Below, one piece after another: positions 1 to 64,000 of a stretch of DNA of 64,000 nt (its first letter is position 1; the number at the start of each line of letters is the position of its first letter). The position numbers were made by a program, and so were the translations under genes. The notes beneath the pieces were generated by a model. That model saw nothing but the letters and a program-made list of their open reading frames with translations. It did not search any database and was not told the origin of the DNA. The stretch lies in assembly GCA_000004985.1 (NCBI GenBank), contig GG738853.1; one strand, written 5' to 3'. Source of the stretch: Naegleria gruberi (Eukaryota).

Positions 1-404
1 TAACCCAAACCCAAACCCAAACCCAAACCCAAACCCAAACCCAAACCCAAACCCAAACCCAAACCCAAACCCAAACCCAAACCCAAACCCAAACCCAAAC
101 CCAAACCCAAACCCAAACCCAAACCCAAACCCAAACCCAAACCCAAACCCAAACCCAAACCCAAACCCAAACCCAAACCCAACCCAAACCCAAACCCAAA
201 CCCAAACCCAAACCCAAACCCAAACCCAAACCCAAACCCAAACCCAAACCCAAACCCAAACCCAAACCCAAACCCAAACCAAAACCCAAACCCAAACCCA
301 AACCCAAACCCAAACCCAAACCCAAACCCAAACCCAAACCCAAACCCAAACCCAAACCCAAACCCAAACCCAAACCAAACCCCCAAACCCCAAACCACCT
401 AACC
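1..404. repeat. Terminal telomere tract, (CCCAAA)n on the + strand = (TTTGGG)n G-strand. About 65 near-perfect hexamers, degenerating at 370-404 (CCAAAC, CCCCAAA, CCACCTAACC variants).
   Basis: Direct reading of the sequence. The unit AAACCC repeats without interruption from position 1. The C-rich strand reads 5'->3' into the sequence, which is the orientation expected for a left chromosome end. Confidence 0.9.
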
Positions 405-486: not shown

Positions 487-509
487 AACCCAAACCCAAA
501 CCCAACCCA
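487..509. repeat. Interstitial telomere-like block (AACCCAAACCCAAACCCAACCCA) at a subtelomeric unit boundary.
   Basis: It is preceded by a conserved junction motif TATTGGCCGTTCGTT...GGTTTTCG. The same motif recurs at 2216-2255. Confidence 0.8.
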
Positions 510-962
510 TTCAAATATCATAATATTTTATATCATTCGATTGGAAATGATGAGTAGAACAACGTAGTATATTTAGTTTTTCAATTTATAAAATATTAAC
601 TTTGTAAATAATGTCAGATTAAAATTTCATAAATGAAACCATATGAAGAATGATAATTTAAAAATCCTTTAATGAGATTATATAGTATATATCATCGTTA
701 ACAACATTCATAATCACTTTCATATAAAATTTCAAAAGTTCATCTCTGTAGGTATAAAAGTATAGAGGGAAAAGGGAAGTTGTGAGGTAAAATAGGTCAA
801 CTATAACTTTTGAGTTTCTCATCAAAACATATTGAAACCTGATATGAAAATGTTCCATTTGATGAGTAAACATCGAATATCAAATTTATTTTAACTTTCA
901 TATTTAAAGATTTCTTCCCTCAACCATCATGGTCAACTAGGGATGAAAAGGATGAAATCTTG

Positions 963-2156
963 AAAAAGGACCNNNNNNNNNNNNNNNNNNNNNNNNNNNN
1001 NNNNNNNNNNNNNNNNNNNNNNNNNNNNNNNNNNNNNNNNNNNNNNNNNNNNNNNNNNNNNNNNNNNNNNNNNNNNNNNNNNNNNNNNNNNNNNNNNNNN
1101 NNNNNNNNNNNNNNNNNNNNNNNNNNNNNNNNNNNNNNNNNNNNNNNNNNNNNNNNNNNNNNNNNNNNNNNNNNNNNNNNNNNNNNNNNNNNNNNNNNNN
1201 NNNNNNNNNNNNNNNNNNNNNNNNNNNNNNNNNNNNNNNNNNNNNNNNNNNNNNNNNNNNNNNNNNNNNNNNNNNNNNNNNNNNNNNNNNNNNNNNNNNN
1301 NNNNNNNNNNNNNNNNNNNNNNNNNNNNNNNNNNNNNNNNNNNNNNNNNNNNNNNNNNNNNNNNNNNNNNNNNNNNNNNNNNNNNNNNNNNNNNNNNNNN
1401 NNNNNNNNNNNNNNNNNNNNNNNNNNNNNNNNNNNNNNNNNNNNNNNNNNNNNNNNNNNNNNNNNNNNNNNNNNNNNNNNNNNNNNNNNNNNNNNNNNNN
1501 NNNNNNNNNNNNNNNNNNNNNNNNNNNNNNNNNNNNNNNNNNNNNNNNNNNNNNNNNNNNNNNNNNNNNNNNNNNNNNNNNNNNNNNNNNNNNNNNNNNN
1601 NNNNNNNNNNNNNNNNNNNNNNNNNNNNNNNNNNNNNNNNNNNNNNNNNNNNNNNNNNNNNNNNNNNNNNNNNNNNNNNNNNNNNNNNNNNNNNNNNNNN
1701 NNNNNNNNNNNNNNNNNNNNNNNNNNNNNNNNNNNNNNNNNNNNNNNNNNNNNNNNNNNNNNNNNNNNNNNNNNNNNNNNNNNNNNNNNNNNNNNNNNNN
1801 NNNNNNNNNNNNNNNNNNNNNNNNNNNNNNNNNNNNNNNNNNNNNNNNNNNNNNNNNNNNNNNNNNNNNNNNNNNNNNNNNNNNNNNNNNNNNNNNNNNN
1901 NNNNNNNNNNNNNNNNNNNNNNNNNNNNNNNNNNNNNNNNNNNNNNNNNNNNNNNNNNNNNNNNNNNNNNNNNNNNNNNNNNNNNNNNNNNNNNNNNNNN
2001 NNNNNNNNNNNNNNNNNNNNNNNNNNNNNNNNNNNNNNNNNNNNNNNNNNNNNNNNNNNNNNNNNNNNNNNNNNNNNNNNNNNNNNNNNNNNNNNNNNNN
2101 NNNNNNNNNNNNNNNNNNNNNNNNNNNNNNNNNNNNNNNNNNNNNNNNNNNNNNNN
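963..2156. other. Assembly/scaffold gap (1,194 N).
   Basis: Uninterrupted run of n. The ORF-track entry 960..2240 is an artefact of translating N. Confidence 0.99.
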
Positions 2157-2281: not shown

Positions 2282-5200
2282 ACAAGAATTTTTCTAAACC
2301 CAACCTTCAAACCCTAGCCCAAAATTATAAACTTATTCAAATATCATAAAATTTTATATCATTCGATTGTAAATGATGAGTAGAACAACGTAGTATATTT
2401 AGTTTTTCAATTTATAAAATATTAACTTTGTAAATAATGTCAGATTAAAATTTGTAAAATGATACCATAGGAAGAAAGTTAATTTCAAAATCCTTTAATG
2501 AGATTATATAGTCAATATCATCATTAACAACATTCATAATCACTCTCATATCTAATTTCAAAAGTTCAAGTTTGTAGACACAAGAGTATGAAGTGAAAAG
2601 GGAAGTTGTGAGGTAAAAGAGGTCAACTATAACTTTTGAGTTTCTCATCAAAACATATTGAATCCTAATATGAAAATGTTCCATTTGATGAGTAAACATC
2701 GAATATCAAATTTATTTTAACTTTCATATTTAAAGATTTCTTCCCTCAATCACACATGGTCTACTATGATGAAAAGGATGAAATCTTGAAAAAGGACCAC
2801 CTATTGAAACTTTACCAAAATGATGTACATGATCTATAATGATATAGAATTCAATTTCATGTCCTAATAATCAGAAATGGTATCATGGGAAGGTATATGT
2901 TGATATTTTTTGGTTGACTTTAGAGAAAGACAAGTCAGACCAACTCTATCAAATACATAACCAACAATATATACATAAAAATGCTCCATTCGATGAGTAC
3001 AGATAGAATATAAAGTTTATTTTCACTTTTATATTCAGGATTTCAACTCTAACATGCCATCTGATAAACAATGAACACGGATGAATTTCTGGAAAATGAC
3101 CACTTTATGAAACTTTACCATCATGTTATACATCTCTACTAATGTATATGGTTCAATTTTCAGACAGTTTGGTGAACATTCTATCTTTCAATAAGGCAAA
3201 GGGTGAAATTTCAAGGTTGTCTTGGAAGATCAGGAGGAAATCTTGAATATAGAGAACCACATCCTCAATCTACTAAATACATATCAATCGATTGGAAATC
3301 GATAGTACATCTCGAAAATATCATTTATTTTATGTTTTGAAATCTCTCCTTTACCTCTTTTGGTCAATTAAGACAATTAAGGATGAGACTATAGGAAAAG
3401 TTACCAATCTCAAAATAAATGATAATATCGTGTTCCACATCTCAAATAAAGTGGACTTTCTTCAAATTATATATTTTCATTTCAAGAAATGTATCCAGTA
3501 GATAGTACATGGTGATTTGTCAGGTGGATTGATAGAATCTGAAAGGTACAGAAACAACTCCATTTTCAATGAAATTGATACCATGACATGTAGACACACT
3601 AATTAGCATATTATATCAATTTCATAAATATTGGTTCAGTAGATGTCGAGTTGTCAACTCTATCATTTTACTATAGAACTTTGACATCAAATTAAAGCTT
3701 ATGCTCCAACTCGCTCATTATACATACAATCAATCTAGAATTGATATCACATAAATTATACATCAATTATATATACTGTATATAGTTTGGAAACAATTAG
3801 TATTACTTTCAATTAGTGAGTCAGTAAATGTTCAATGTCAATAGTGATTATATCCAAGTGTACACTCTATCTCAATGAATGTACATCCTATCATCGTGTA
3901 ACTTTACCATGGACGTTTAAACACACTGTTATACATATGGTATCAATTTTAGTCTGTTAGAATTGAATTAAGTATGATAATAATAACAGTCTATCACATT
4001 GTCATAATTCAACATATAGAATATACTCCATCTCAGTCAATTTACAAAATATCATACTTGTATCAAATATGAATACACTCCGCTTGATGAGGAGAACAAT
4101 CTGAGAAAGTTTCATATTCATGGCTCAATATCTTTAACTCAACTAAGGTAATCAATTAGGAAGAATCTTAATTCCAAAATTAAATTTTACCATCATATCA
4201 CAATTACTGAATAATGAAATACTTATACAAGAATCATATGATCAATTGTAATGTTCATGTCAATAATCAGTGAAGGTACCATTTCATCAGCCTTAGTGTT
4301 CACATCTCAATATCTAGACAGTCAATGTGACTGAAACTTGATATACAACCTATTTAGATGATATAATGATGACTCTCCATTGTAACATGCATGTGTAATT
4401 GAATGTTGACACTTTTCATATTGTTATATTTATAGAGATGGTATCCAACAGAGTCAGTTCACAATGTTAAATATTGAAACTCATTCTGTATGGTATATTT
4501 GGTGTATAGAGTGGTTTTTTTATTGATTGTAATCAGTTTGAAATAATTTGATGAAATTGACACTGTCTAGTCACCATTACATAACAAATAGACCATAGTT
4601 TACATTCCATCTCAGTCATTTCGACGAGTTATTGATTAATTCCACCACCATTATGTTTCTCATACATTGTAGTACAGTTTATATTTCAAGAGTGATTTCT
4701 GTGTAGATTATTATAATCGAAATACCTTGCAATACCAATAAAACTCAATAGAAGAGTTAATTCATCTCATTTTCAAATAGATTATTCAATATAGAACACA
4801 TCTAGATAGTTTCCAGATCATAAAAGTCAAGATACTATATATGGTCTTTGATTAAATTTAAAAATAGACTGCCGTTAATTACTGGAATATTAATTCAAAG
4901 CTTGATGATAAAGCTGTTGATTGAAATCAAACCGATTATTGAATATTGATCATTGAATTGGTGAATAATCACTCTTGATAATGTTACTTATTCAGATTGC
5001 ATGCAAATCAACCTGATTCAATCTACAAAGGTTGGTAGTTGCACCACTACGTGGCGAAACTACCCATCCACGATCAATCAACATAAGAATCACTTCCATT
5101 CAACTCAATTTGACCGTTATAATCAATAAATCAATGAAATGTTCCTTTATTAGCAATACCTATTCAATCTAACGAGTAGATTCACGTCCCAAACATTTGA

Positions 5201-5376: not shown

Positions 5377-5393
5377 AACCAAACCCAACCCAC
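5377..5393. repeat. Degenerate interstitial telomere-like block (TAACCAAACCCAACCCAC) at the third unit boundary.
   Basis: It sits where the second unit ends and the third begins (the 5395 sequence matches 2405 and 600). Confidence 0.6.
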
Positions 5394-8300
5394 TTTGTAA
5401 ATAATGTCAGATTAAAATTTCTAAAATGAAACCATAGGAAGAATGATAATTTCAAAATCCTTTAATGAGATTATATAGTATATATCATCATTAACAACAT
5501 TTATAATCACTTTCATATAAAATTTCAAAAGTTCAAGTCTGTAGATATAAAAGTATAGAGGGAAAAGGGAAGTTGTGAGGTACAAGAGGTCAACTATAAC
5601 TTTTGAGTTTCTCATCAAAACATATTGAATCCTAATATGAAAATGTTCCATTTGATGAGTATACGTCGAATATCAAATTTATTTTAACTTTCATATTTAC
5701 AGATTTCTTCCCTCAACCATCATACGGTCAACTATGATGAACAGGATGAAATCTTGAAAAAGGACCACCTATTGAAACTTTACCAAAATGATGTACATGA
5801 TCTATAATGATATAGAATTCAATTTCATGTCCTAATAATCAGAAATGGTATCATGGGAAGGTAAATGTTGATATTTTTTGGTTGACTTTAGAGAAAGACA
5901 AGTCAGACCAACTCTATCAAATACATCACTTCAACCAACAATATATACATGAAAATGCTCCATTCGATGAGTAGAGATAGAATATCAAGTTTATTTTAAC
6001 TTTTATATTCACGATTTCAACTCTAACATGCCATCTGATAAACTATGGACACGGATGAATTTCTGGAAAATGACCACTTTATGAAACTTTACCATCATGT
6101 TATACATCTCTACTAATGTATATGGTTCAATTTTCAGACAGTTTGGTGAACATTCTATCTTTCAATAAGGCAAAGGGTGAAATTTCAAGGTTGTCTTTGG
6201 AAGATCAGGAGGAAATCTTGAATATAGAGAACCAAATCCTCAATCTACAAAATACATATCAATCGATTGGAAATCAATAGTACATCTCGAAAATATCATT
6301 TATTTTATGTTTTGAAATCTCTCCTTGACCTCTTTTAGTCAATTAAGACAATTAAGGATGAGACTATAGGAAAAGTTACCAATCTCAAAATAAATGATAA
6401 TATCGTGTTCCACATCTCAAATAAAGTGGACTTTCTTCAAATTATATATTTTCATTTCAATAAATGCATCCGTTAGATAGTACATGGTGATATTTCAATG
6501 GAATGGATGGAAATCTGAAAGGTACAGAAACAACTCCATTTTCACTTAAATCAATATCATTACATGTAGACGCTCTAATTAGAATATGATATCAATTTCA
6601 TGAATATTGGTTCAGTAGATGTCGACATGTCAACTCTATCAATTTACTATAGACATTTGACATGATATCATAGATTATGCTCCAACTCACTCATTTTACA
6701 TATAATCAGTCTAGAATTAATACCACATAGCCTATACATCAATTAAATACATCTACAATAGTTTAGAAACATTTCAAACTACTTTCATAAAATTAATCAG
6801 TAAATGTTCAATCTCAACACTTTATATATCCTAGTGAACACTCCATATCAGTGAAAGTACATCCAATCATCCTGTAACTTTACCATATACCTTTAATCAC
6901 TCTATTATACATCTGGTATCAATTTCATACAGTTAGAATTGAATTCAGTATGATAATAATAACAATCTTTCAAAATGACACATTTCAATAAAAAGATTAC
7001 ACTCCATCTCAGTCAGTTTACAAAATATCATACTAGTATCAAATATGAATAGACTCCTCTTGATGAGGAGAACAATTTGAGAAAGTTTCATATTCATGGC
7101 TCAGTATCTTCAAGTAAACTAAGTAACCTTAGAATAGACAAGTCAATTAAGTACATCAATTCAACAATTGAAAATTGAAATATAGTATATTTATTACAAA
7201 TTAATAGGACTCTTCTAAATAACTATATCGTTTAAATTAATATTTGTAAAGTTGTCAACACATCATGTCACAGATCATACTCTTTCTCAATGAATAGTTG
7301 ACTAAATCAATTTAAAATGACATACAGTTGTTTATACATAGTATTGTATATGTGGTATCAATATCTTTTAAAATTGTCAAGTATTAAGGAAGATCTAAAA
7401 AAATAAGGTGGTAAAATTGAATAAGTTAGTAAAATGACCTTGAATCGATCACTCGTCACTTAATTGACACTCCAACATACAACCACTGAACCAACAGTGC
7501 TAAAGCTTTAATTTCTAGAAATGATTCGTATGAATAACCAAGGGGTTGTATGACTATTAAGGGAAAATTGTCGGTTTCTATTAAGAACAACAATTAACAA
7601 CAAATAACAACAAGAATTGTATCATTATATGATAATAACAATAATTTATTAAACGATATGGAAGGGAGAAGTTGCTCCCTCACCAAATGATGAGGGGAAG
7701 ATTCAACTTGATGATCAAGAGATGGTACCTCCACCAATCTACTTAAATTATAATATCATTGAAGATTATCCTGATGATCTTGTTGATAAATAGATTCATA
7801 CATCGGAATAGTTTTGGAAGCAGAGTTATTTAGCGTTGTATTTTGATAATCGTAATATTTTAAAGGGTTAAAAATGGAGTTGATTAATGCGATTATCAAA
7901 ATAATGGCTTCAAATCCATGGCTATTAGCATTGCCAACAAGCAAATAACTTGTGGAGTGAGAAACATTACCACTACCTTCTAAATAATATTAATAAATAT
8001 TATTTACTTGTTCCTTAATGATCTTAATGATATCGGAATAAGTGCGCACCGCAATTAAAGGTAGTTTCACACTTGTTCAACACAGCTATTAAGCAATAGA
8101 AAATTAACAAGTTTAACACCAATTCAAATACAAAATGCTCAACAATTACTGAATTAAATGCAAATATCCCAACGTCATTTTGTAGAGAATTAAGTTGAAC
8201 CTATGCGATTTTTCACCGTTTGCCAAATGGTTGCGTATATAGCAAGCCCCCCCAAGAGAACAAAAAACACAGAAATATCGAGGTAAAACGAGTTGATTAT

Positions 8301-8836
8301 CTCCATTATTTGATAGCAACCAATATTAAAATTATATATCAGCATGTAGCCGTGAACATTTCCTATCTAATGATATATATCGATGTATATGAAGTCTTAT
8401 AAATAATGATGTTTTAAGAGCGCAGATTAATATCCAAACCCTTTAACAGATATTAAAAAGACACACATTCCTGGAAGTTATGAAGGTTCAACTGAAGATT
8501 TCCCATCAGAGGAAAGTACAAAATTCAAACCAATTAACAGTTTACGTGAATCCTCTTTAAATGCATCAACTGGATCATCTAGTTATTCAGATCCAATTCA
8601 AAATTATGAAATTCAAGAAAGAATTGGTCAAGGTGCATTCGGAAGTGTGTGCAAAGCAAAAGATTTGAAATCTGGAATAACAAGAGCAGTTAAAGCACTT
8701 AAATATTCCAACAATGAAGATTTGAATTTAATGATGAAAGAAGGAATGCAACTGATGAACATTTCACACTCAAATATTTTAAGAGTGAATGATTTATTTG
8801 TTGGAAATAATCAATTATTATATATTGATATGGATT

Positions 8837-8844
8837 ATTATGAA
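8837..8844. repeat. Left copy of the target-site duplication ATTATGAA.
   Basis: It is identical to the 8-mer at 9547-9554, immediately outside the TIRs. Confidence 0.75.
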
Positions 8845-9546
8845 TAGACGGTGGGCAGTACCCTGTATTCGTTGTTCCAACCAAATTTTTTAGAGTCGAG
8901 CCAATTTTATAAATATTTTAATATTATTTATTCTTCTGATGATATTTCGTCGCCACTTTATTCATCACTTCCACTTTGTGGATTCTGATGCATCATCTTC
9001 CTCATATTCTGATCCGCTGGTAGTATCGTCTTGGTAAATTCTTGGAAAGCTTTTGGAGTTTATGGTTTGATGGTTGGTATTTCATCATCAACAGGATTTC
9101 CTCTTTTTGTTGCCAATTTCTTGGTTTCTTTGTTGTTGGAGATTTAGATGTAAGAAGAAGATTCCAGTCAAAGAAATTTCCTGATGATGGGTTGTTGTAT
9201 ATATATTCTAGCCAACTGCCATGTTGTTCAGTTGCTTCCAAATACCAGCTTGTGATTGGACATTGTGGCCAGTAGACAAAATCTCTTAATTTTTTTAAAT
9301 TTTAATTTAACGGTTTTTACAACCAAATGTCAAAGCAACGGATCTTCTGTGGCTCGACTTTGAAATTTTTTTGTCTGACCCGGCTCGACTTGTAAAAATT
9401 TTTGTCTGACCCGGCTTGACTTGTAAATTTTTTAGCCTGACCCGGCTCGACTTGGAAATTTCGCAAGTTCTACATAAAATGCCTCTGGCTCGACTTTGAA
9501 ATTTTTACTCCCTGACCCGGCATTTTACATCACTGACCACCGTCTA
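8845..9546. mobile_element. Non-autonomous DNA transposon (MITE-like, hAT-like by its TSD length). It is 702 bp, with perfect 10-bp terminal inverted repeats TAGACGGTGG...CCACCGTCTA (the imperfect match extends to ~14 bp) and a flanking 8-bp direct duplication ATTATGAA.
   Basis: I read the TIRs and the TSD directly from the sequence. Removing 8845-9546 plus one TSD copy joins ...GATTATTATGAA|AATGGAGATTTA..., which encodes DYYENGDL. That is exactly the expected kinase subdomain V sequence, so the insertion site is in a coding exon. The element has no long ORF; ORF 9002..9241 is low-complexity. An internal minisatellite lies at 9351-9521. Confidence 0.75.
9351..9521. repeat. Minisatellite with a ~31-bp unit (GGCTCGACTTGTAAAAATTTTTGTCTGACCC) in about 5 copies, relatively GC-rich, inside the TIR element.
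   Basis: Direct repeats seen at 9351, 9382, 9413, 9444 (diverged) and 9487. Confidence 0.8.
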
Positions 9547-9554
9547 ATTATGAA
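9547..9554. repeat. Right copy of the target-site duplication ATTATGAA.
   Basis: See 8837-8844. Confidence 0.75.
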
Positions 9555-10604
9555 AATGGAGATTTATGTAAACTCATTTACAAACAAACTTCTAATGTTG
9601 CAGAAAAGGTTATTTTCCAAATATTGGAACAATCTTGTAAGGCATTAGATTATGTTCACTCTGAATTGAAAATTATTCACAGAGATGTAAAACCAAGTAA
9701 TATTTATTTTCATCAAATCATATGAGGTTAATGAAAATATTCATGTAATTTTAGCAGATTTTGGTCTTGCCAAACAAACTCAAGGATCAATCAATAACTC
9801 ATACGCTGGCACTCCTCTTTATATGAGTCCTGAATGGACTGGTTTAGGTGCTAAATATTCTTACAATACTGATATTTATTCATTAGGTGTTACAATTTAT
9901 CAAATAATGACTAAGGATTCACAAACTTCCATAAGTCATCTTTATTTAACAATGGATTCTGCAGAAGTGAAAGAGTATTTGAAGAACATGATGAATGAAC
10001 CGGCTGTTTATTCTTCAAAATTGATTGAAATTGTGTTATCAATGTTAGAAAAAGACACTAACAAGAGACCAGCAGCAAAAGACATTCTAAAAACAATAAA
10101 TTAATGAGATAGTTTAATTCTTGTTATGTTTCTATTTATTAGTTATCCTTGATTTTTCATACAACATGAGTCCACAAGTTATTGAATACACCACAAGTTT
10201 GATTAGAAATATAAGGTTGACATCCACTACACACAAATATTTCAGTAACATCATGATATTCAATTCTCCAATTTCCTCCAAAAGTTGCTTGAAACATAAT
10301 TCCCATATTAAACATTTTACCATGTGGAATAAATGATCATGATGACGATTATTCTTGCAACTCATGTGCAATCTTGAACTGCCATCAGTCCCATGTAATT
10401 CCAATAGATCCTTCACCTAGTCCAATAATTGCTCGATTTATGTTTCGTCCATAACCTACGAAAGGTTGAGGTTTGGTAATTTCCTCATTTCTCATAGGTT
10501 CCAATTGATTAATCATGTCTTTGAGAATGTATCTTCCAAATTAATCTGTAAACTTTCACTGCTTATTCCAAGTCCGAGTATTAATGAAGTATGTTCCAAT
10601 GCAA

Positions 10605-11677
10605 TCAAGATAATAAACATCCACCATCAGATTGGAATACTTTGGTATCTTTTTTGACTACCTTTTCTAATAATTCTCTCCTTTTGGTATATTCAGATCC
10701 ATTGAAAAAGTATCCTTTCTCGATAGTTCTATCGACTACAGTTTCAATATTAATATTTTCCTTACTGCTTGTTTCAAATATTTCATAATCCGAACAATCA
10801 TAACTTGTCAAAATTTCAATAACTTTTCCCTTGACTTGTTGCATATTTAGTGTAGAATCAGATTTCAAACGATCGATCTGACTGATGCAAACAGTTATTG
10901 GAACGGATTCATCATCATTAATATTAACTATTGATCTGATTACTCTATCAAAAACATCGAAATATGTTGTATGGCTATTCACAGCAAACAAAACAATGTA
11001 TCCTCTTGCTCCTTTAAGTTTTGCTAATTAATCCGAAATCAAATCGAAACCAAAGGTCAATTAAATAAATATTTACGCCCTACTAACTAACCTTGATCAT
11101 ATAAATAATAATCATGCCTAAAACCACTATCCCAAATTTCCAATTTCAACTGTCTTTGATTGAAATGAATATTCCTACGAAATGTTTCATCAATTGGATG
11201 ATCATATTCAGCAATAAATCGATCGTACAAGTATCTATAGATGAAGCAATGAATTCCAGAACCACCAGGACCAGTAATGCAAAGCTTGAACTTATTTTCA
11301 TTGGCTTTATGATGTGGCTCCTTTTCTTTCCTTCTCCTTTCAGCTTCATGCAAAATAGCAAACATTCTCTTGTAGGACTTTTTGGATAATTTCTTTATAG
11401 TTTCTTCCTTTTTATGCCAGTGATTCCACTGACAAACTGGACTGACTATTTCCTTTCCATCCTTTATTTCGGAACGTACGTGAATATATGAATACAAGAT
11501 AATTGACCAATACTTTTCCAAAAAAGAACGAAGCATGAATTGTTTGGAAATTAATTCTAAATTACACAAGTTTTTAATGTTGGCTTCCAGTCTCACAGAA
11601 GGTTGTGCAGTATTGATGATGTACTCAACAATGTGATGAAGCAACTCGGGAGGAAGATTGGCAAAGTGTGATGACAT
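10605..11677 (-). CDS. F-box-like N-terminus (LPPELLHHIVEYI...) fused to a Ras-superfamily small GTPase (G1 GPGGSG, G3 WDSG, G5 ETSSK) that ends in a CaaX prenylation box (CLLS). It has two exons with an intron at ~11024-11090 (GTTAGT...TAATTAG).
   Basis: ORFs 11087..11677 and 10605..10991 are in the same orientation, separated by a GT-AG intron that restores the frame. The Ras-like motifs and the terminal C-L-L-S were read from the translation. Confidence 0.7.
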
Positions 11678-16860: not shown

Positions 16861-19800
16861 TCAAAAAAATAAACTCGTCATCACAACAACCAATGCCAAT
16901 AACAAGAAATTCACAGCAAACAACCTATTGCCACCACCAATTAAACTTGTGTGCTTCTTTGGAGATGTACTCACTGGTGGATTAGTACTTGATTGTGGAG
17001 TTGTCTCTGCAGTCAAATCAACAGCAAATTTAGTTGTATGATCACAGGCACACGTAACAACAGAATTGTCATAATCGATACTTGCTAGTTTACATCCTGA
17101 TGAACTCCACATCAATTTTTGTTCATCATAATATTTACATACAAGTTGTTTTTGCATGGCTGATTTACTAACCAAAACCTTCAATGTGAATTTTAGTTGA
17201 ATTGGTTTTGTAAGATTGGTTAATGCTAGAGCTTGTCCAGAACTGTAAAACTTGAGGTCCACCTGGTCAGAAACAAGATTTGTCATAGCTCTACGTCTTG
17301 ATGATGTCTTGTAGGAATATTTAACAAGACTGATGGCTGCCATTGATGAAGAATCCTTATAAATGGAAGAAATGTCAGTGGAAATGTCATCATAGACAAA
17401 GGTTGTTCCTCCTGATGATTTTAACACACTTGATATGTTAAATGATGAAACAGAAATGTTAAAAGATGAAGATTGAATATGGAGACTTGTCAAAGCTGAT
17501 GTGTTGGTTTCCACTGGATTGATGCTCATTACAAGGACAGAAGCAATGTTAGAAATTAAACTTTCGGCCTTACTTTCTGAACCATATTCATAAATATTAG
17601 AAATGATACTGACAGTAGATTGTGTTTCTTCAGTGGAAAGTTTGACTTGGGTTGAACCATTTTGTAACTTTTGGGACATGTCTGTGAGGAATGAGTCAAG
17701 CTTGGTAGAGACACTTTCCAGAGCTGTCTTGTCAACAGTTGGTGATGAAGTAACAGTTTCAAATATCTTTAAAACTTGTTGAGAATTATTGGTGTCAATG
17801 GAAAGAGTATTCACTAATTGTGTACTAACAAGTGATGAACTTGATTCATCGTAGAAGGCAACAATCTTTTCTTCACTTGACAATGAGCTGATTCTTGTAG
17901 AAAGCTCTTGACTTGTACCAGAGAATGCACTAATAATAACACTTCCACCTCTCAGCGTGTTGACATTTCCAGTGGAATCTTTTACAAACATCACTAATGG
18001 AATTGAGGATTGCTTGGTGAAGGGCAGTATTGTAGTGGCGTTTGGATACTGAGAATATTTTGTCAAGACAATATTTTCGTCCTTACTATTCACAAATCCG
18101 AATGCATATTGAAGTGGTGATATCTTTGAAGAGGCCAACCATGGTTTAGAGGAGAGTGTAAATGTTTGTGTGAGAGCAAAGCCGCTTGTTGGACTAATTG
18201 TGAAATTATTCTCAGATGCGTACGCTTTCGTCTGACCTTCCAGATAGAAACTACAATCCTCATTTGTATAACCACTATCACATTGACAATTGTTTTGATT
18301 TACACAAATTCCATTACCTGAACAAGATTTCGTCGAGTTGTACACAATTCCAAAACAAGAATGATCAGTGACTCTAGTTATTGGTCCTCTGGTTTCTACA
18401 ATAAGTTCTTGAATAGCTCTAAAACGATGTGCTTCAGAAACATCTTGATATTGATATTCCAACAAATGCCAAGAACCATATTTTGAAGGGAAGCCAACAT
18501 TTGCATAGTGACAATTTTCAACCAAGCTCAAATTAGCATACATTCTGTAGTACTTTTTGTAAATATCATACATTTTGATATCTCTATTCATGGCAATATA
18601 CTTATCTGTGGCTCCTGAGGTTTCATATCCACTGGCAATGGCCGAATATTCAGCTACAGAACTACCACTTTCATACATTCCTAGTGTAATATTATAGGAT
18701 TTTGCAACTTGAAGCTGCTGTTCAAGCATTGATTTAGTGGAAGCAAATTCATCATCACACTTTTTGAAAAGTGTATTCAAATCGGAAATGGCAACCAAAG
18801 TTCCTGAAGATTCCAAGCCACATCCGAAATAACCTGTCACTGTTAGCATAATATTGGAATGAGATTTGTAAAGATCTTGATAAGATAATATTCTAGTAGA
18901 AGTTATCGGCATAAGAGTAAAGGAAGCTGCAACAAGAGTCAATCTATTGCTTTCACTACCGAATACACTCTTCCAAATAGTAATAATTTCTTTAGAACGT
19001 TTTGAATAGAACAAGTTTCTTGCTGCCAAGGAGTCTTTAGATAATCCCAATAATTTTCCTTGCTCTTCACAATATTTACCACTATCAAAGAGTGTATTCC
19101 ATGCTTCGTTGGTGTATTCAAGATAAATTTGTACATCATTTCTCAGAGTTTGTTTAGCTAGGAGGGCAAATTGTCTGATATATTCATCGTTGGCACCATA
19201 AGGAATTGTAAACCACGGATTAGCTTTGAGAATATTACATAATTGAATCATGTATTCGTGAGCAACACCTCTTCCCATTGGTAAAGTAGATGGTGTAATT
19301 CTATCTTCCCATGTAATAATTCCTTTTTCCATAGTCCATGGCATGAATCTAATGGTCTTGAAATTTTCCAATCTCTTTAAAAAGAGTGGATGGAATGGAT
19401 TATCTTGATAGGTATTTTCAAAACCATCCATTACAATTCTTATATTTCTGATAGGATTATTTGGATTGGTTTCTTTAATTTTCATAAAGACACCATTGTC
19501 ACGAACAAGGGAAAGTGTGACTTTAATTTTCATATATCCTTTCTGGTTATTCTCAATAATTGTAGAATCGAATCCAAAGTCTAATTGACCATTTCCTTCA
19601 TAGAAAACATGGTAGATTCCTCCTGGCCATTTCTGTTGGATATCTCTCAACATTAGAGTTACTAATTGCTTTCCTTGTGCAATACTAGCTGGATAGCCAT
19701 CTGATCTTAGTTTGATTTCATTATTATAACTCCAAATATATATGCTATTCATTCCTTCCAAATCTTGGAGAATCCAAGCCCTGGCTTGTTTCATCAAATC

Positions 19801-22800
19801 AACAAAGGTCCATTGAGGAGAATAATCTACAACGCTATTCACATTCACACCAAGTTTTGATCCATCATTTGGTGAATTTGCCTTGATGGTACAGCTACTT
19901 CGTGAGTCCATTCTATATCCACTATGACATGCACAAGTACTGTTAAGGCAAATACCATTTGCACATCCCAGAGAAGGACACTTCAAACAGGCTCTACTTG
20001 TTGGATATTTCTTACAATCGATTTCACATTTTCCATTCACAAATGAGTAGCCGTAATCACAGACACAGTTTGTGGAATTGGTAGCACAATAACCAACTCC
20101 ATTACAATTACAATCAATGGAACAATCACTTCCTGTAAAACCTCTATAACAACTACACTTGTTATAATCAATACAGTTTCCATTATAGTTACATTTTGAA
20201 TCACAAGTAAATAAGGTGCATCCATAGCCGTAATATCCAGTTTGGCAGTGACATGTATAGACTGCATAAAATCCTTCTGTATGATTGAAAAGACAATTAC
20301 CTTTTCCTCCACATTGATATGTGCATCTGTAACTGTTAATATAATTGATTATCTCACAATTGGTTCCATTGTAGCCAAAGAAACAGTGGCAAGAGTCTCT
20401 GGAATCTGACAAGGCATTTGCAGCACAAACACCATGATTATTGCAGTTATCTTTACAAGTGGATGGCTTTTCATTCCAATTACAAACACTCATTGAATCT
20501 ATATAGTTTTGATAGGCAACATATTTTGGAGAAGATGAGGATGATAAGTCAGAATCTGATGATTCAATCAATCCCCAACATCCGTACTTGGAAAAGACAG
20601 ATGTGGATGTAAAATGATTGTAGGCACTTAGTTTAACTCCTGGTGCAATATTAGTTATGTTGGAGAGGTAGTATGTAAGGGCTTGTTTCATTCTTGGGTC
20701 TCTGTGAATGGTCATTGATAAATCTGTCAATTCTGTATTACCAGTATCAGTCAAAGATGAAAAATCTGGTCCACCTTCATAGAAAGCAAGTTCCATTCCA
20801 GGAGAGGATTGATTTACAATCTTGTATGTGCTTAAAAGAGCATTTCTGGAACTTGCAATGGCTGTATGAATAATAGATCCATAGAATTCCTCAAGACTGA
20901 CCAGGGAATTATCTGCCTTCTTCAAACTATCGCTCATATATGGAGCAATGGCCACAACATTGAAAGATTGATAGTAATTTCCTTCGCACAAGTAGAAAAT
21001 CTCCAAAGGGCCAGTCCAAGCTGCTTGAGCAGCAAATACCAATTTGATTCTCCTGTGATGTGATGCTCCAAACACTCCTCTGATAATATCTGCATATCTC
21101 TTGGCAGTCTTGATGTGATAACAGATTCTAGCAACTTCATAAGAACTGTAATAGTTTTGAAGTTTGGTCAATTTCATTCCTTCAATAACTCCCATTTGTT
21201 GAGCGTAACTTCCACAAGCACCTGAGGCCCAACATTCATTGCCAATTTCAATGTAGGCAGTAACATCTGGTCTGAGATAATCTCTCACATAGGTTGCCCA
21301 ATTTTCAATATATCTATCAGTGGCTCTGTGAGGTAAATTGAACCATGGATTATTTCCAAGCATATTACACAAGAGCACTTGCATTTCCATACTTACTCCT
21401 GTTTTTAGTCTGAAGGTGTAATAGGAATTGAGAGTTCTATTCTCCCAATCATAGTCTTTATCGACACCAATATTAGACCAAGGCATAAATCTAATAATTT
21501 GGTACTTTTTCAATTGTTCCAAAAAGAGAGGATGGAATGGGAAATCTTCATAGGTTTGCTCATATTTAGCCTCAAATATTCTCACATTTCTGATGGGATT
21601 CAATGGATTGGTTCTCAAAATCTTGTAAAAGACACCATTATTCATTTCAGTCTTGTGATTGTATTGGAGTTCAATTCTACCTGCATCTCTTCTCAATATT
21701 TTCTGATCTTCAAACTGGAATTCTAAAACGCCATCACCATCATAGAGGCAAATATACTTTCCATTTGGGAAGTGAGCTGCCACATCACGAACTGCAAAAG
21801 TTGCTACATTTTTAGTTATCTCCAAATATTGAGGATATCCATTTTCATCCAGTGGTACACTTTCTTGGTCATCCTCTGCCCATCCAGTACCATAGACAAA
21901 TTTCTGGACAATCCACTTTCTGGCTCTTCTTTGAATATCTATGAAAGTTACTTCTCGAGACCAATCTGCCAAACCATCAATATTGACGCCAAATTTGGTT
22001 GTATTGGAGGCACAATCTTGATATTTTGGAACTGTTATGTTACAATTTGCTCCAGAAAAACCATCAAAGCAGTGGCATGATCCATTATGGCAAACACCAT
22101 ACTTACAATCAGTACATGGTAAACGAATAGGTTTTGGAATATCGTCTGATGTGAATGGAAGACTACCATTTCCTCCTTCCAACCAAGTAAGCACAGCTCG
22201 GTATTTTGGTACAGTTTGTGGATCCTGTAGAAGACTTTCCATCACTGCTTGATAGCCACATCTACCACCTCCTCCCAAGCATCTATCTATCTTTTCCACA
22301 ATATTATTCAGAATCATTAATCCACCTCCCATTCTATGCCAACGTTTCATTACATCAACAACCATATCCTCAACAATTGGTTGTCTGAGAGCCTCAATGG
22401 AAATATCCTCTAGTCTTTGTTCCAATGGTGCTAGATCTGTCTTTTTCCATCTATTTGCCCAACCAGGTGCATGAATTCTCAAGCCTGCATCGTATAGTAT
22501 TAATGGAATTTTCAATTTGAAAGCAACTCTATTTAACAAATAGATCCAATCTATTTCGTCCTTGTAAATTTCTTGTCTGAGTAAATTGAGAACATCATCT
22601 ACTGTGTAATTGACTGAAAGGTTGACATCATAACCATTTCCATAATACTCTATACCAGTACCAACATTTCCACTCACTGCAAAAGCATCAAATAAGCTCA
22701 AGTCATCACTTGAATAGAGTGATAATACACTGTCGTAATAGGCAGGTATCATTGTAGAGAGGATATACTTGCATCGAGTATCATTCAGACCGAATACTGC

Positions 22801-23829
22801 TTTGAACGTATTGATTAATTGAATGTTCAAGTTTCTATTATTTCCACCCCAGCCCTTATCAGCTGATTGTTCAACATGTATTGTGAGAGAGGTATTTAAA
22901 TTATCTCTCACATAGGAAGCAATATGCATAATATGATCACTACTGCATGCATTTGGTATTGAAATCCAAATATCCTTAGCCAAATAATTTCCTAATTCTA
23001 CAATATATTCAATAGAAACCATTGCTTGTCCGTGTTGAGTGTAAAAAGTAGCAGGTCTTTTATCGGCCCATTCCTTATCACAATTTGTGATGGAATTTCC
23101 ATAACTCCTTCCAATCATCCATGAGGAGAATCTCAATACTGAAAATGGTTCAATAGCTCTGAGAAAGTCTGTGGAAAATGTTGAGGTTACATTCTCCTCC
23201 CTTGCCTCCTTCAAAATAACATTGTAAACATTAGGCTCTGTTACAATTAGTACTATACCCTTAGTAGAGGTATTCTGTACTGAAAATTCAAATCTATGAC
23301 TATTGACTTGTCTAACATTGGTTGCATCTCCTAAAATTGAAAAGTTTCCACTTCCTTCAAAAGTCAAAATATAATCACCTGTTGGATACTTTCCCAAAGT
23401 ACCCAATTCTGTTTGATAGCCATAACGTCTCTTATTGTATTTATTTTGAAATCCGAGAGGATAACCATCTTGTGACCAATTTGTTGTGATGGTTCCTTCA
23501 AAGTAATACGTTTTCCATTCATCAAGTGATCCAACAGGTCTCCACTCTCTTGCATGTTTAAATCTATTGGTAAATACCCACTGAATCATTTCATAATCGA
23601 TTGGTCCTAAATTAATTCCCAACATGTGTCTTGCTTCATCTCCTCGGAAGAGTAAATTTGGAGCACTTGCAAGTACTGAATGATGATGATGTAGTGTTAT
23701 TGTTGTTGTTAGTATTGTTATTATTAAGGAGAAGAGAAGACAATTAATAATTTTAGAAAATACTCGTACTGATGATGATGAATCAAGAGGAGAATACCTT
23801 CCCGATGATTCGAGGACAAAGACTTTCAT
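16861..23829 (-). CDS. A 2,322-aa secreted or type-I membrane protein. It has an N-terminal signal anchor, three copies of a ~450-aa domain (GVN(V/I)..xDxxxW.F.DxxxxARxW ... NP.NPIRN(I/V)RI ... FHPLFL..L....IRFMPW ... NE(A/C)W), clusters of EGF-like or tenascin-type Cys-rich repeats, an S/T-rich mucin-like stalk, a GPS/GAIN autoproteolysis motif (CACDHTTKFAV) and one C-terminal TM helix.
   Basis: This is a single uninterrupted ORF with an ATG at 23827-23829. I read the domain repeats and motifs from the translation. The NE(A/C)W motif is reminiscent of the NEP motif of clan GH-A glycosidases, but that is speculation. Confidence 0.75.
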   Translation of the reverse strand: MKVFVLESSGRYSPLDSSSSVRVFSKIINCLLFSLIITILTTTITLHHHHSVLASAPNLLFRGDEARHMLGINLGPIDYEMIQWVFTNRFKHAREWRPVGSLDEWKTYYFEGTITTNWSQDGYPLGFQNKYNKRRYGYQTELGTLGKYPTGDYILTFEGSGNFSILGDATNVRQVNSHRFEFSVQNTSTKGIVLIVTEPNVYNVILKEAREENVTSTFSTDFLRAIEPFSVLRFSSWMIGRSYGNSITNCDKEWADKRPATFYTQHGQAMVSIEYIVELGNYLAKDIWISIPNACSSDHIMHIASYVRDNLNTSLTIHVEQSADKGWGGNNRNLNIQLINTFKAVFGLNDTRCKYILSTMIPAYYDSVLSLYSSDDLSLFDAFAVSGNVGTGIEYYGNGYDVNLSVNYTVDDVLNLLRQEIYKDEIDWIYLLNRVAFKLKIPLILYDAGLRIHAPGWANRWKKTDLAPLEQRLEDISIEALRQPIVEDMVVDVMKRWHRMGGGLMILNNIVEKIDRCLGGGGRCGYQAVMESLLQDPQTVPKYRAVLTWLEGGNGSLPFTSDDIPKPIRLPCTDCKYGVCHNGSCHCFDGFSGANCNITVPKYQDCASNTTKFGVNIDGLADWSREVTFIDIQRRARKWIVQKFVYGTGWAEDDQESVPLDENGYPQYLEITKNVATFAVRDVAAHFPNGKYICLYDGDGVLEFQFEDQKILRRDAGRIELQYNHKTEMNNGVFYKILRTNPLNPIRNVRIFEAKYEQTYEDFPFHPLFLEQLKKYQIIRFMPWSNIGVDKDYDWENRTLNSYYTFRLKTGVSMEMQVLLCNMLGNNPWFNLPHRATDRYIENWATYVRDYLRPDVTAYIEIGNECWASGACGSYAQQMGVIEGMKLTKLQNYYSSYEVARICYHIKTAKRYADIIRGVFGASHHRRIKLVFAAQAAWTGPLEIFYLCEGNYYQSFNVVAIAPYMSDSLKKADNSLVSLEEFYGSIIHTAIASSRNALLSTYKIVNQSSPGMELAFYEGGPDFSSLTDTGNTELTDLSMTIHRDPRMKQALTYYLSNITNIAPGVKLSAYNHFTSTSVFSKYGCWGLIESSDSDLSSSSSPKYVAYQNYIDSMSVCNWNEKPSTCKDNCNNHGVCAANALSDSRDSCHCFFGYNGTNCEIINYINSYRCTYQCGGKGNCLFNHTEGFYAVYTCHCQTGYYGYGCTLFTCDSKCNYNGNCIDYNKCSCYRGFTGSDCSIDCNCNGVGYCATNSTNCVCDYGYSFVNGKCEIDCKKYPTSRACLKCPSLGCANGICLNSTCACHSGYRMDSRSSCTIKANSPNDGSKLGVNVNSVVDYSPQWTFVDLMKQARAWILQDLEGMNSIYIWSYNNEIKLRSDGYPASIAQGKQLVTLMLRDIQQKWPGGIYHVFYEGNGQLDFGFDSTIIENNQKGYMKIKVTLSLVRDNGVFMKIKETNPNNPIRNIRIVMDGFENTYQDNPFHPLFLKRLENFKTIRFMPWTMEKGIITWEDRITPSTLPMGRGVAHEYMIQLCNILKANPWFTIPYGANDEYIRQFALLAKQTLRNDVQIYLEYTNEAWNTLFDSGKYCEEQGKLLGLSKDSLAARNLFYSKRSKEIITIWKSVFGSESNRLTLVAASFTLMPITSTRILSYQDLYKSHSNIMLTVTGYFGCGLESSGTLVAISDLNTLFKKCDDEFASTKSMLEQQLQVAKSYNITLGMYESGSSVAEYSAIASGYETSGATDKYIAMNRDIKMYDIYKKYYRMYANLSLVENCHYANVGFPSKYGSWHLLEYQYQDVSEAHRFRAIQELIVETRGPITRVTDHSCFGIVYNSTKSCSGNGICVNQNNCQCDSGYTNEDCSFYLEGQTKAYASENNFTISPTSGFALTQTFTLSSKPWLASSKISPLQYAFGFVNSKDENIVLTKYSQYPNATTILPFTKQSSIPLVMFVKDSTGNVNTLRGGSVIISAFSGTSQELSTRISSLSSEEKIVAFYDESSSSLVSTQLVNTLSIDTNNSQQVLKIFETVTSSPTVDKTALESVSTKLDSFLTDMSQKLQNGSTQVKLSTEETQSTVSIISNIYEYGSESKAESLISNIASVLVMSINPVETNTSALTSLHIQSSSFNISVSSFNISSVLKSSGGTTFVYDDISTDISSIYKDSSSMAAISLVKYSYKTSSRRRAMTNLVSDQVDLKFYSSGQALALTNLTKPIQLKFTLKVLVSKSAMQKQLVCKYYDEQKLMWSSSGCKLASIDYDNSVVTCACDHTTKFAVDLTAETTPQSSTNPPVSTSPKKHTSLIGGGNRLFAVNFLLLALVVVMTSLFF

Positions 23830-63900: not shown

Positions 63901-64000
63901 CTTCATAGAGAGAAACTGGTTGATCCATATCCAAATTCACATCATTAGTGGAAACCATACTATTTACAGAGGATATTGTCAAGGTCATACTTTGGAAAAT
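51921..64000 (-). CDS. dnapkcs: DNA-dependent protein kinase catalytic subunit (DNA-PKcs, PIKK family). The 3' end is at 51921. The gene runs off the window at 64000, with the N-terminal exon(s) beyond it. At least four coding segments (51921-56809, ~56851-60479, ~60520-63236(+), 63314-63988) are separated by short introns or frame breaks.
   Basis: About 4,060 aa of contiguous same-strand ORFs (1632 + 1277 + 927 + 224 aa). The C-terminal segment has the PI3K/PI4K kinase motifs (DLRQDQRIQQLFHVMN ... [29 protein letters not shown]) and a FATC tail ending ...LIDMATDVKILGRTYIGWGAQF, characteristic of DNA-PKcs. Candidate GT-AG introns of 41 nt (~56810-56850) and 40 nt (~60480-60519) restore the frame. 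The 63237-63313 junction is unresolved. Confidence 0.8.

What the first reader, a model, noticed from the sequence alone, without database searches (positions are those of the whole stretch)
8837..9554. A 702-bp TIR element with an 8-bp target-site duplication sits precisely inside a kinase coding exon.
The perfect 10-bp terminal inverted repeats (TAGACGGTGG / CCACCGTCTA) flanked by identical ATTATGAA copies are the textbook footprint of a cut-and-paste DNA transposon. An 8-bp TSD and TAG-initiated TIRs are typical of hAT-like elements. Removing the element plus one TSD copy in silico regenerates an uninterrupted kinase subdomain V (LYIDMDYYE-NGDLCKLIY). The element lies in an exon and contributes an in-frame TAG, so the insertion is recent and gene-disrupting. 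The intact ends imply that an autonomous partner or other mobile copies exist elsewhere in the genome. No canonical GT-AG pair bounds the element, so removal as an ordinary intron is unlikely. An introner-like splicing alternative should still be checked with RNA data.
Basis: seen in the sequence. Interest (0 to 1): 0.78.

Follow-up and report, generated by a model that had tools for sequence, protein, structure and literature searches.

The report
Small DNA transposon inside kinase pseudogene
A 702-base non-coding "cut-and-paste" DNA transposon has inserted cleanly into a protein-kinase gene next to a chromosome end of a Naegleria-like amoeba; the insertion is real, but it is an ordinary kind of event and the gene carries other damage too.

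Summary
The element spans 8845-9546 (702 bp). Its terminal inverted repeats are perfect for 10 bp and match at 14 of 15 (TAGACGGTGGnCAGT). It is flanked by identical 8-bp direct repeats, ATTATGAA. Deleting the element plus one repeat copy gives a kinase domain (Pfam Pkinase, E = 1.8e-49). That domain aligns without a gap across the junction (DMDYYE|NGDL) to eight Naegleria paralogues. The element also has asymmetric subterminal repeats (GGCTCGACTT, one copy on the left, five on the right). It has no detectable coding capacity and no splice-site pair that could remove it usefully.

It is best read as a non-autonomous class II transposon mobilised in trans. It is hAT-like by target-duplication length, target pattern (nTnnnnAn), short inverted repeats and subterminal repeats. 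The superfamily remains unproven: no transposase relative was found, and the tip matches the hAT consensus YARNG at only 4 of 5 positions.

The kinase is the gene nearest the telomere. It also carries a 4-nt tandem duplication that shifts the frame, and it has no usable start codon. The insertion therefore need not have caused the gene's inactivation.

No other copy was found, but the source genome is absent from every searchable collection. Copy number, an autonomous partner and a true empty site remain untested. This is a new member of a known kind, of low interest.

The parts
8837..8844 (+). Left copy of the 8-bp target-site duplication, ATTATGAA
   Evidence: Identical to 9547-9554. Lies in codons (D)Y-Y-E of the kinase.
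8845..9546 (.). The inserted element: 702 bp, 37% G+C against about 30% in the flanking kinase sequence
   Evidence: It is the only structure in the window with a 10-bp inverted repeat plus an 8-bp direct repeat.
8845..8859 (+). Left terminal inverted repeat, TAGACGGTGGGCAGT. Its first codon, TAG, is in frame with the kinase.
   Evidence: ORF 8647..8847 stops here.
8883..8903 (-). Single left-end copy of the roughly 21-nt subterminal repeat. Its core GAGTCGAGCC at 8893-8902 begins 48 nt from the left tip.
   Evidence: Inverted-repeat pairs I2-I4.
9002..9298 (-). Longest stop-free stretch inside the element (98 codons; the ORF from TTG is 79 aa). No credible homologue, so not regarded as a gene.
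9351..9461 (+). Right-end array of 3.6 tandem copies of a 31-bp unit (GGCTCGACTTGGAAATTTTTTTGTCTGACCC), carrying four copies of the GGCTCGACTT core
   Evidence: Tandem Repeats Finder score 166; family D1.
9486..9506 (+). Outermost right-end subterminal repeat. Its core GGCTCGACTT ends 50 nt from the right tip, mirroring the left copy.
   Evidence: I4: 81% complementary to 8883-8903.
9532..9546 (-). Right terminal inverted repeat (ACTGACCACCGTCTA on the + strand)
9547..9554 (+). Right copy of the 8-bp target-site duplication, ATTATGAA
8431..8844 (+). Kinase, part upstream of the insertion (N-terminal tail, glycine loop, subdomains I to V). Open from the stop at 8428-8430 but with no in-frame ATG before the glycine loop.
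9555..10104 (+). Kinase, part downstream of the insertion (subdomains V to XI, stop codon at 10102-10104). Interrupted by a frameshift.
9701..9708 (+). Second lesion in the kinase: tandem duplication TATT|TATT. It adds 4 nt relative to all eight paralogues (expected ...SNIFIKS...) and leads to a TGA about 5 codons later.
   Evidence: ORF 9624..9725 ends prematurely.

Best explanation
The 702-bp segment is a non-autonomous class II (cut-and-paste, DDE-type) DNA transposon, most likely of the hAT superfamily, inserted into a subtelomeric protein-kinase gene of a Naegleria-like amoeba.

Inferred mechanism. A transposase encoded elsewhere in the genome binds the short terminal inverted repeats (TAGACGGTGGnCAGT). 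It probably also binds the subterminal GGCTCGACTT repeats, of which there is one on the left and five on the right. It excises the element from a donor site and joins its 3' ends to target phosphates staggered by 8 bp at ATTATGAA. Repair of the two 8-nt gaps creates the flanking direct repeats.

Consequence shown by the sequence. The kinase reading frame runs straight into the element's first triplet, TAG, inside catalytic subdomain V.

What is shown: the structure of the element; the exact 8-bp duplication; the gap-free restoration of the kinase; and the lack of coding capacity or useful splice sites.

What is inferred: mobilisation in trans; transposase binding to the subterminal repeats; the superfamily; and that the event was recent.
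For: - Exact inverted repeats and target-site duplication.
- In-silico removal of 710 nt gives a Pkinase domain with E = 1.8e-49. It is collinear, with no gap at the junction, with eight Naegleria kinases.
- Subterminal repeats are confined to the element: six of the seven window matches, against 0.9 expected. They sit at mirror-image distances from the two tips, 48 and 50 nt, and are asymmetric in number (1 versus 5). Hermes, a hAT element, is reported to have subterminal repeats arranged asymmetrically at its two ends (PMC10368747).
- The 8-bp duplication ATTATGAA fits the hAT/Hermes target preference 5'-nTnnnnAn-3' (PMC10368747).
- No protein family or homologue was found for any reading frame of the interior. 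No Rfam family matched. This fits a non-autonomous element.
- The element's G+C content (37%) differs from that of the flanking kinase sequence (about 30%).
- DNA transposons make up about 1.25% of the N. lovaniensis genome (PMC6125883), so such elements exist in the genus.
Against: - Only one copy could be seen. There is none elsewhere in the 64-kb window, and no related sequence in the metagenome, viral or prokaryote genome collections. The three raw matches were chance hits in bacterial DNA.
- No transposase relative was found, so multi-copy status and superfamily are unproven.
- The tip TAGAC deviates at position 5 from the hAT consensus YARNG (consensus quoted from my own knowledge).
- The nTnnnnAn match has a chance probability of about 0.1 in this A+T-rich DNA.
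- The bare inverted-repeat plus direct-repeat geometry arises by chance in about 4% of simulated windows.
Confidence: 0.88

Rival explanations
1. It is a non-autonomous cut-and-paste element, but of a superfamily other than hAT that also makes 8-bp (or 8-9 bp) target duplications: P, Merlin, Zisupton/KDZ, Novosib or a short-inverted-repeat MULE. It could also belong to an undescribed lineage.
For: The tip TAGAC fits YARNG at only 4 of 5 positions. No hAT domain, such as BED or Dimer_Tnp_hAT, was found in the element or anywhere in the window's large ORFs. Repbase classifies non-autonomous elements only by duplication length plus terminal alignment to a known element (PMC4455052). That test could not be run here.
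Against: The combination of a short (10-15 bp) inverted repeat, an exact 8-bp duplication fitting nTnnnnAn, numerous asymmetric subterminal repeats and a length of about 0.7 kb is most typical of hAT derivatives (PMC10368747, and my own knowledge). MULEs usually make 9-11 bp duplications and have long inverted repeats. Merlin tips usually begin with GG. P-element inverted repeats are usually longer.
Confidence: 0.35
2. It is a spliceosomal intron or an introner-like element, removed from the pre-mRNA so that the kinase remains functional.
For: Transposon-derived introns are known in other protists (my own knowledge). Apart from one frameshift, the kinase frame is free of stop codons over about 320 codons.
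Against: None of the nine exact-excision registers has GT-AG, GC-AG or AT-AC ends. The only in-frame, stop-free GT-AG or GC-AG combinations start at 8748, 8785 or 8800 and end at 9608-9697. They delete most of subdomains IV-V (GT-AG) or IV-VI (GC-AG), including the invariant D-Y-G-D-L residues. No AT donor resembles the U12 consensus ATATCC. The gene also has an independent frameshift and no start codon.
Confidence: 0.02
3. The inverted and direct repeats are coincidental, or the segment is an assembly artefact inserted into the kinase.
For: The bare inverted-repeat plus direct-repeat geometry appears in 8 of 200 Markov simulations. The window is a scaffold with an N-gap at 973-2156, so the assembly is not flawless.
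Against: Chance does not explain why the 710-nt removal restores a conserved domain gap-free. It also does not explain why the repeats extend to 14 of 15 bases, or why the segment carries mirror-image subterminal repeats. Mis-assembly does not create an 8-bp duplication flanking inverted termini.
Confidence: 0.02
4. It is a germline-limited or programmed-elimination sequence (IES-like) that is excised precisely at the DNA level in some life stage.
For: Precise excision using one repeat copy would restore the frame at the junction.
Against: Programmed DNA elimination is not known in Naegleria (my own knowledge). The gene has other lesions that excision would not repair. Nothing in the data points to this reading.
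Confidence: 0.01

Closest known systems
Non-autonomous hAT elements (Ds-type deletion derivatives of Ac, hAT MITEs such as Drosophila 'mar', and the ends of Hermes)
   Same: 8-bp target-site duplication; a target matching nTnnnnAn; short terminal inverted repeats beginning TAG (the 3' end of Ac begins TAGGG); many short subterminal repeats distributed unequally between the two ends; length of a few hundred bp; no transposase gene.
   Different: The fifth base of the tip is C rather than the consensus G. The subterminal repeat is a long unit (10-bp core, 31-bp tandem period) rather than the 4-6 bp motifs of Hermes or Ac. No sequence similarity to any hAT element or protein could be shown. The host is a heterolobosean amoeba, where such families are essentially undescribed.
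P, Merlin, Zisupton, Novosib and short-inverted-repeat MULE non-autonomous elements
   Same: Cut-and-paste elements that also generate target duplications of about 8 bp and may carry subterminal binding sites.
   Different: Their typical termini (P: CATGATG...; Merlin: GG...; MULE: long G-initiated inverted repeats with 9-11 bp duplications) do not resemble TAGACGGTGG. These termini are quoted from my own knowledge. They were not tested against Repbase.
Introner-like elements / transposon-derived introns (Micromonas, Aureococcus and others)
   Same: A transposon with inverted-repeat ends and a target duplication sitting inside a coding exon.
   Different: Introners supply or co-opt GT...AG so that the element plus one duplication copy is spliced out. 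Here no register gives canonical splice sites, and the host gene looks like a pseudogene.

Membership tests
Class II cut-and-paste (TIR) DNA transposons | Terminal inverted repeats at the exact ends of the insertion | tested here: met
   10 of 10 perfect, 14 of 15 extended.
Class II cut-and-paste (TIR) DNA transposons | Fixed-length target-site duplication immediately flanking the inverted repeats, and an 'empty site' that is restored by removing the element plus one duplication copy | tested here: met
   ATTATGAA is present twice. The restored kinase aligns gap-free to eight paralogues. The empty site is shown only by paralogous proteins, not by an allele.
Class II cut-and-paste (TIR) DNA transposons | Multiple copies in the genome, or a related autonomous copy encoding a transposase | not testable with these tools
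   The source genome is absent from the collections. There is no second copy in the window. Pattern scans of metagenome, viral and prokaryote genome contigs gave only chance bacterial matches.
hAT superfamily | 8-bp target-site duplication | tested here: met
hAT superfamily | Target preference 5'-nTnnnnAn-3' (Ac/Hermes-type) | tested here: met
   In ATTATGAA, position 2 is T and position 7 is A (preference cited from PMC10368747). This is weak support: the chance probability is about 0.1 in this A+T-rich DNA.
hAT superfamily | Terminal consensus 5'-YARNG | tested here: inconclusive
   TAGAC matches at 4 of 5 positions, with C instead of G at position 5. The consensus is quoted from my own knowledge and has known exceptions.
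hAT superfamily | Subterminal short repeats, asymmetric between the ends, serving as transposase (BED-domain) binding sites | tested here: met
   There is one copy on the left and five on the right. The asymmetry of such repeats in Hermes is cited from PMC10368747. Binding by a transposase is inferred, not tested.
hAT superfamily | Relationship to a hAT transposase (BED zinc finger, DDE/RNase H fold, hAT C-terminal dimerisation domain), or terminal alignment to a classified hAT element (the Repbase rule: same duplication length and positions 1-11 with at most 1 mismatch) | tested here: not met
   No Pfam hit in the element. No homologue in 5.8 billion proteins or in 1.84 billion cluster representatives, apart from spurious hits inflated by tandem repeats. 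No transposase domain in any large ORF of the window. Comparison with Repbase termini was not possible (rule cited from PMC4455052).
Spliceosomal intron / introner | GT-AG (or GC-AG, AT-AC) boundaries whose removal keeps the frame and the protein domain intact | tested here: not met
   Enumeration. All canonical in-frame options delete conserved subdomains.

The most novel reading that the evidence does not exclude
The element may represent a currently mobile, undescribed DNA-transposon family of a Naegleria species. Its termini (TAGAC...) and its long 31-bp subterminal repeat unit do not fit canonical hAT, so it could define a distinct lineage with its own transposase. If it is active, it would be the first characterised endogenous cut-and-paste system in a genus that has a very low repeat content and few genetic tools.
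Probability: 0.2. Interest if true: 0.45.

Novelty: new member of a known kind. Interest (0 to 1): 0.25.

Why it matters
If the family proves to be multi-copy and mobile, it would document recent DNA-transposon activity in Naegleria. Published Naegleria genomes are gene-dense, with only about 1-11% repeats across assemblies (PMC6125883, PMC9928731), and their transposon families are barely described. It could also point to a transposase usable for insertional mutagenesis. As it stands, this is a clean example of a transposon insertion in a decaying subtelomeric gene. It is useful for annotation: mask 8845-9546 and flag the kinase as a pseudogene. It is not surprising.

Tried and rejected
1. 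Other copies in the window. blastn of the element against the window, the 15-nt terminus with up to 3 mismatches, and the subterminal core motif found nothing outside the element.
2. Coding remnants.
   - Pfam on the longest internal frame gave no hit.
   - A concatenated query of five reading-frame segments against 5.8 billion proteins gave none at E <= 10.
   - A full HMMER search of 1.84 billion cluster representatives with the 98-aa frame returned eight hits. All are tandem-repeat proteins whose scores are summed over many weak stretches. One looks like a translated repeat. The others examined are bacterial Cache-domain arrays that match only a 20-aa motif, GxW(L/V)(D/E)Y(I/V)xxNPxxG.
   - I rejected these as homologues. 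A captured fragment of a host Cache-like gene remains a weak, unresolved lead.
3. Finding the source genome or an orthologous empty site. Exact-protein look-ups of three window ORFs failed. The neighbouring RGS-domain gene has at best 55% identity to anything in the collection. Look-ups of the N. gruberi hits P0050 and P0001 returned nothing. The one retrievable contig (L002, 2.3 kb, ENA metagenome) carries only a 56%-identical paralogue.
4. DNA pattern scans for the terminus plus subterminal motif, or for the tandem array.
   - Metagenome contigs: 0 hits for the first pattern, and 1 chance hit in a G+C-rich bacterial contig for the second.
   - Viral contigs: 0 hits.
   - Prokaryote genome contigs: 2 hits in bacterial MAGs. 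By my own calculation, about 2 are expected by chance for 22 specified bases, 31 gap lengths and 596 Gb. There is no similarity beyond the specified bases.
5. Intron reading. It was enumerated and rejected.
6. Structured RNA. Rfam found no match in 8600-9800.
7. Empty-site paralogue in the window. None was found; the only match is the filled site itself.
8. Literature on Naegleria transposons. It gave only bulk repeat percentages and no family descriptions.

Full report
**Observation**

The window begins with a telomere, (CCCAAA)n at 1-400. TTTGGG has been reported as the candidate telomeric repeat of Naegleria gruberi (PMC3622300). The window is A+T-rich, at about 35% G+C, and carries long, mostly intron-poor eukaryotic genes.

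At the coordinates given, the sequence reads ...GAT TAT TAT GAA | TAGACGGTGGGCAGT ... ACTGACCACCGTCTA | ATTATGAA AAT GGA GAT.... A script confirmed the following:

- The element is 8845-9546, 702 bp.
- Its ends are perfect inverted repeats for 10 bp and match at 14 of 15 positions.
- The octamer ATTATGAA flanks it on both sides, at 8837-8844 and 9547-9554.

This is the only structure in the window with a 10-bp inverted repeat plus an 8-bp direct repeat. The bare geometry arose in 8 of 200 Markov simulations. By itself it is therefore only modestly significant.

**What makes it real**

Removing the element plus one octamer (710 nt) joins two open stretches into a protein-kinase domain (Pfam Pkinase, E = 1.8e-49). 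Its best relatives are Naegleria gruberi and N. fowleri kinases of 53-64% identity.

In the alignment with eight of them, the junction ...LLYIDMDYYE|NGDLCKLI... is collinear and has no gap. D135, Y137, G140, D141 and L142 are invariant columns on either side of it. An insertion that interrupts a conserved domain exactly at the boundaries of a direct repeat is not a coincidence.

**Anatomy**

Beyond the 15-nt termini, the element carries a repeated motif with the core GGCTCGACTT.

- Five copies lie in direct orientation near the right end. Four of them sit in a 31-bp tandem array at 9351-9461; the fifth is at 9487.
- One copy lies in the inverted orientation near the left end, at 8893-8902.
- Six of the seven window matches to this core lie in the element, against 0.9 expected.
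- The outermost copy on each side lies at a mirror-image distance from its tip, 48 and 50 nt.

The interior (about 8904-9340) has no credible coding capacity:

- There is no Pfam family.
- A composite of five reading-frame segments had no relative in a 5.8-billion-protein collection.
- A full HMMER scan of 1.84 billion cluster representatives returned only tandem-repeat proteins. Their scores are sums of many weak matches to one 20-residue Cache-like motif or to a translated repeat.
- No Rfam family matches.

The element is 37% G+C against about 30% for the flanking kinase sequence.

**Mechanism**

The anatomy is that of a non-autonomous class II transposon. It has transposase-recognised tips, arrays of subterminal binding sites and no transposase gene, so it must be mobilised in trans. 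The 8-bp direct repeat is the repaired staggered cut at the target.

Among eukaryotic superfamilies, the following combination is most typical of hAT:

- an 8-bp duplication;
- a target fitting 5'-nTnnnnAn-3' (ATTATGAA has T at position 2 and A at position 7);
- short inverted repeats;
- numerous subterminal repeats arranged asymmetrically at the two ends.

The target preference and the asymmetric subterminal repeats are described for Hermes in PMC10368747.

Against a firm assignment stand three points. The tip TAGAC matches the hAT consensus YARNG at only four of five positions. No hAT protein or DNA relative was found. Other superfamilies (P, Merlin, Zisupton, Novosib, some MULEs) can also give duplications of about 8 bp.

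I put about 0.88 on 'non-autonomous cut-and-paste transposon insertion' and roughly 0.55 on 'hAT' within that.

**Intron alternative**

None of the nine registers in which exactly 710 nt could be removed has GT-AG, GC-AG or AT-AC ends. The only canonical GT-AG or GC-AG pairs that keep the frame open start at 8748, 8785 or 8800. They delete most of subdomains IV-V (GT-AG) or IV-VI (GC-AG), including invariant residues. No donor resembles a U12 site.

**State of the host gene**

The kinase is the first gene after the telomere and after about 7 kb of subtelomeric repeats (three copies of a roughly 3-kb unit). Besides the insertion, it has two further defects.

- Relative to all eight paralogues (...KPSNIFIKS...), it carries four extra bases. 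They form a tandem duplication, TATT|TATT, at 9701-9708. This shifts the frame and leads to a TGA a few codons later.
- There is no in-frame ATG between the upstream stop (8428-8430) and the glycine loop. The nearest ATG, at 8480, is in another frame.

The gene is therefore probably a pseudogene for more than one reason. The order of the lesions cannot be told. The otherwise stop-free frame of 320 codons suggests that decay is not ancient. Identical 8-bp repeats and 10-bp tips bound the age of the insertion only loosely. The 4-nt duplication could also be an assembly error, and this needs read-level checking.

**Copies, partner and empty site**

- The window has no second copy and no transposase domain in any large ORF.
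- The source genome is not in the searchable collections. Three exact-protein look-ups failed. The neighbouring RGS-domain protein has at most 55% identity to anything on record, and 48% to N. gruberi. The organism is therefore a Naegleria-like species distinct from the sequenced N. gruberi, N. fowleri and N. lovaniensis.
- Pattern scans for the terminus plus subterminal motif, or for the tandem array, gave only chance hits in bacterial DNA.
- The 'empty site' is supported only by paralogous proteins.

**Comparison and novelty**

The closest known things are Ds-like or MITE-like derivatives of hAT elements. The differences are the fifth base of the tip, the unusually long subterminal repeat unit (10-bp core, 31-bp period) and the host lineage.

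Naegleria genomes are reported to hold only about 1-11% repeats across assemblies, and about 1.25% DNA transposons in N. lovaniensis, with no family-level description that I could find (PMC6125883, PMC9928731).

This is a new member of a known kind. It is a clean, textbook insertion, useful for annotation and as a seed for a genome-wide search. It would not surprise a specialist.

**Verdict**

- Interest is 0.25.

Noticed in passing
window 1-400, 487-507, 2257-2280: A terminal telomere tract, (CCCAAA)n of about 400 bp, matches the TTTGGG repeat proposed for Naegleria gruberi. Short interstitial telomere-like runs lie inside the subtelomeric repeat units.
   Followed up: partly
window 509-972, 2335-4147, 5392-7123 (N-gap 973-2156): There are three copies of a subtelomeric repeat unit of about 3 kb, 91-94% identical to each other. 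An internal sub-repeat of about 190 bp is about 75% identical between copies. The first unit is interrupted by a 1184-nt run of N, a scaffold gap. No ORF of 90 aa or more lies between 2157 and 8400.
   Followed up: partly
window 9701-9708: A 4-nt tandem duplication, TATT|TATT, frameshifts the kinase relative to all eight paralogues. It could be replication slippage, an assembly error, or speculatively the footprint of an excised element that makes 4-bp duplications.
   Followed up: partly
window 8431-8646: The N-terminal extension of the kinase is open from the stop at 8428-8430 but has no in-frame ATG. An ATG at 8480 is in a different frame (26-aa ORF 8480-8560). This suggests a further indel or a lost start codon.
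   Followed up: partly
window 9180-9240 (- strand), residues 20-41 of the 98-aa frame: The translated motif HGSWLEYIYNNPSSGN resembles the conserved GxWVDYVFxNPxTG motif of bacterial Cache domains. The hits were inflated by tandem repeats in the subject proteins, and no Pfam Cache model matches the query. It could be chance or a captured gene fragment.
   Followed up: partly
window 51921-63988 (- strand): A DNA-PKcs gene (N-terminal, CC1-2, CC3, CC5, FAT, PI3/PI4-kinase and FATC domains) is split over four successive ORFs. The first pair overlaps by 7 nt, the second by 194 nt, and the third pair is separated by a short gap. This suggests short introns or frameshifts. The gene runs off the window end.
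   Followed up: no
window 16861-23829 (-), 36170-39094 (+), 42514-47844 (+): Large surface or signalling genes are present. One is a 2322-aa protein with teneurin-like EGF repeats and a GPS motif. Another is a 974-aa NHL/EGF teneurin-like protein. A third is a 1776-aa PAS-domain adenylate/guanylate cyclase.
   Followed up: no
window 10605-11677 (- strand): Two adjacent ORFs (196 aa and 128 aa) between the kinase and the RGS-domain gene look like the two halves of a small-GTPase-like protein (GPGGSG...DSG motifs), split by an intron or a frameshift. This was read by eye and was not checked against Pfam.
   Followed up: no
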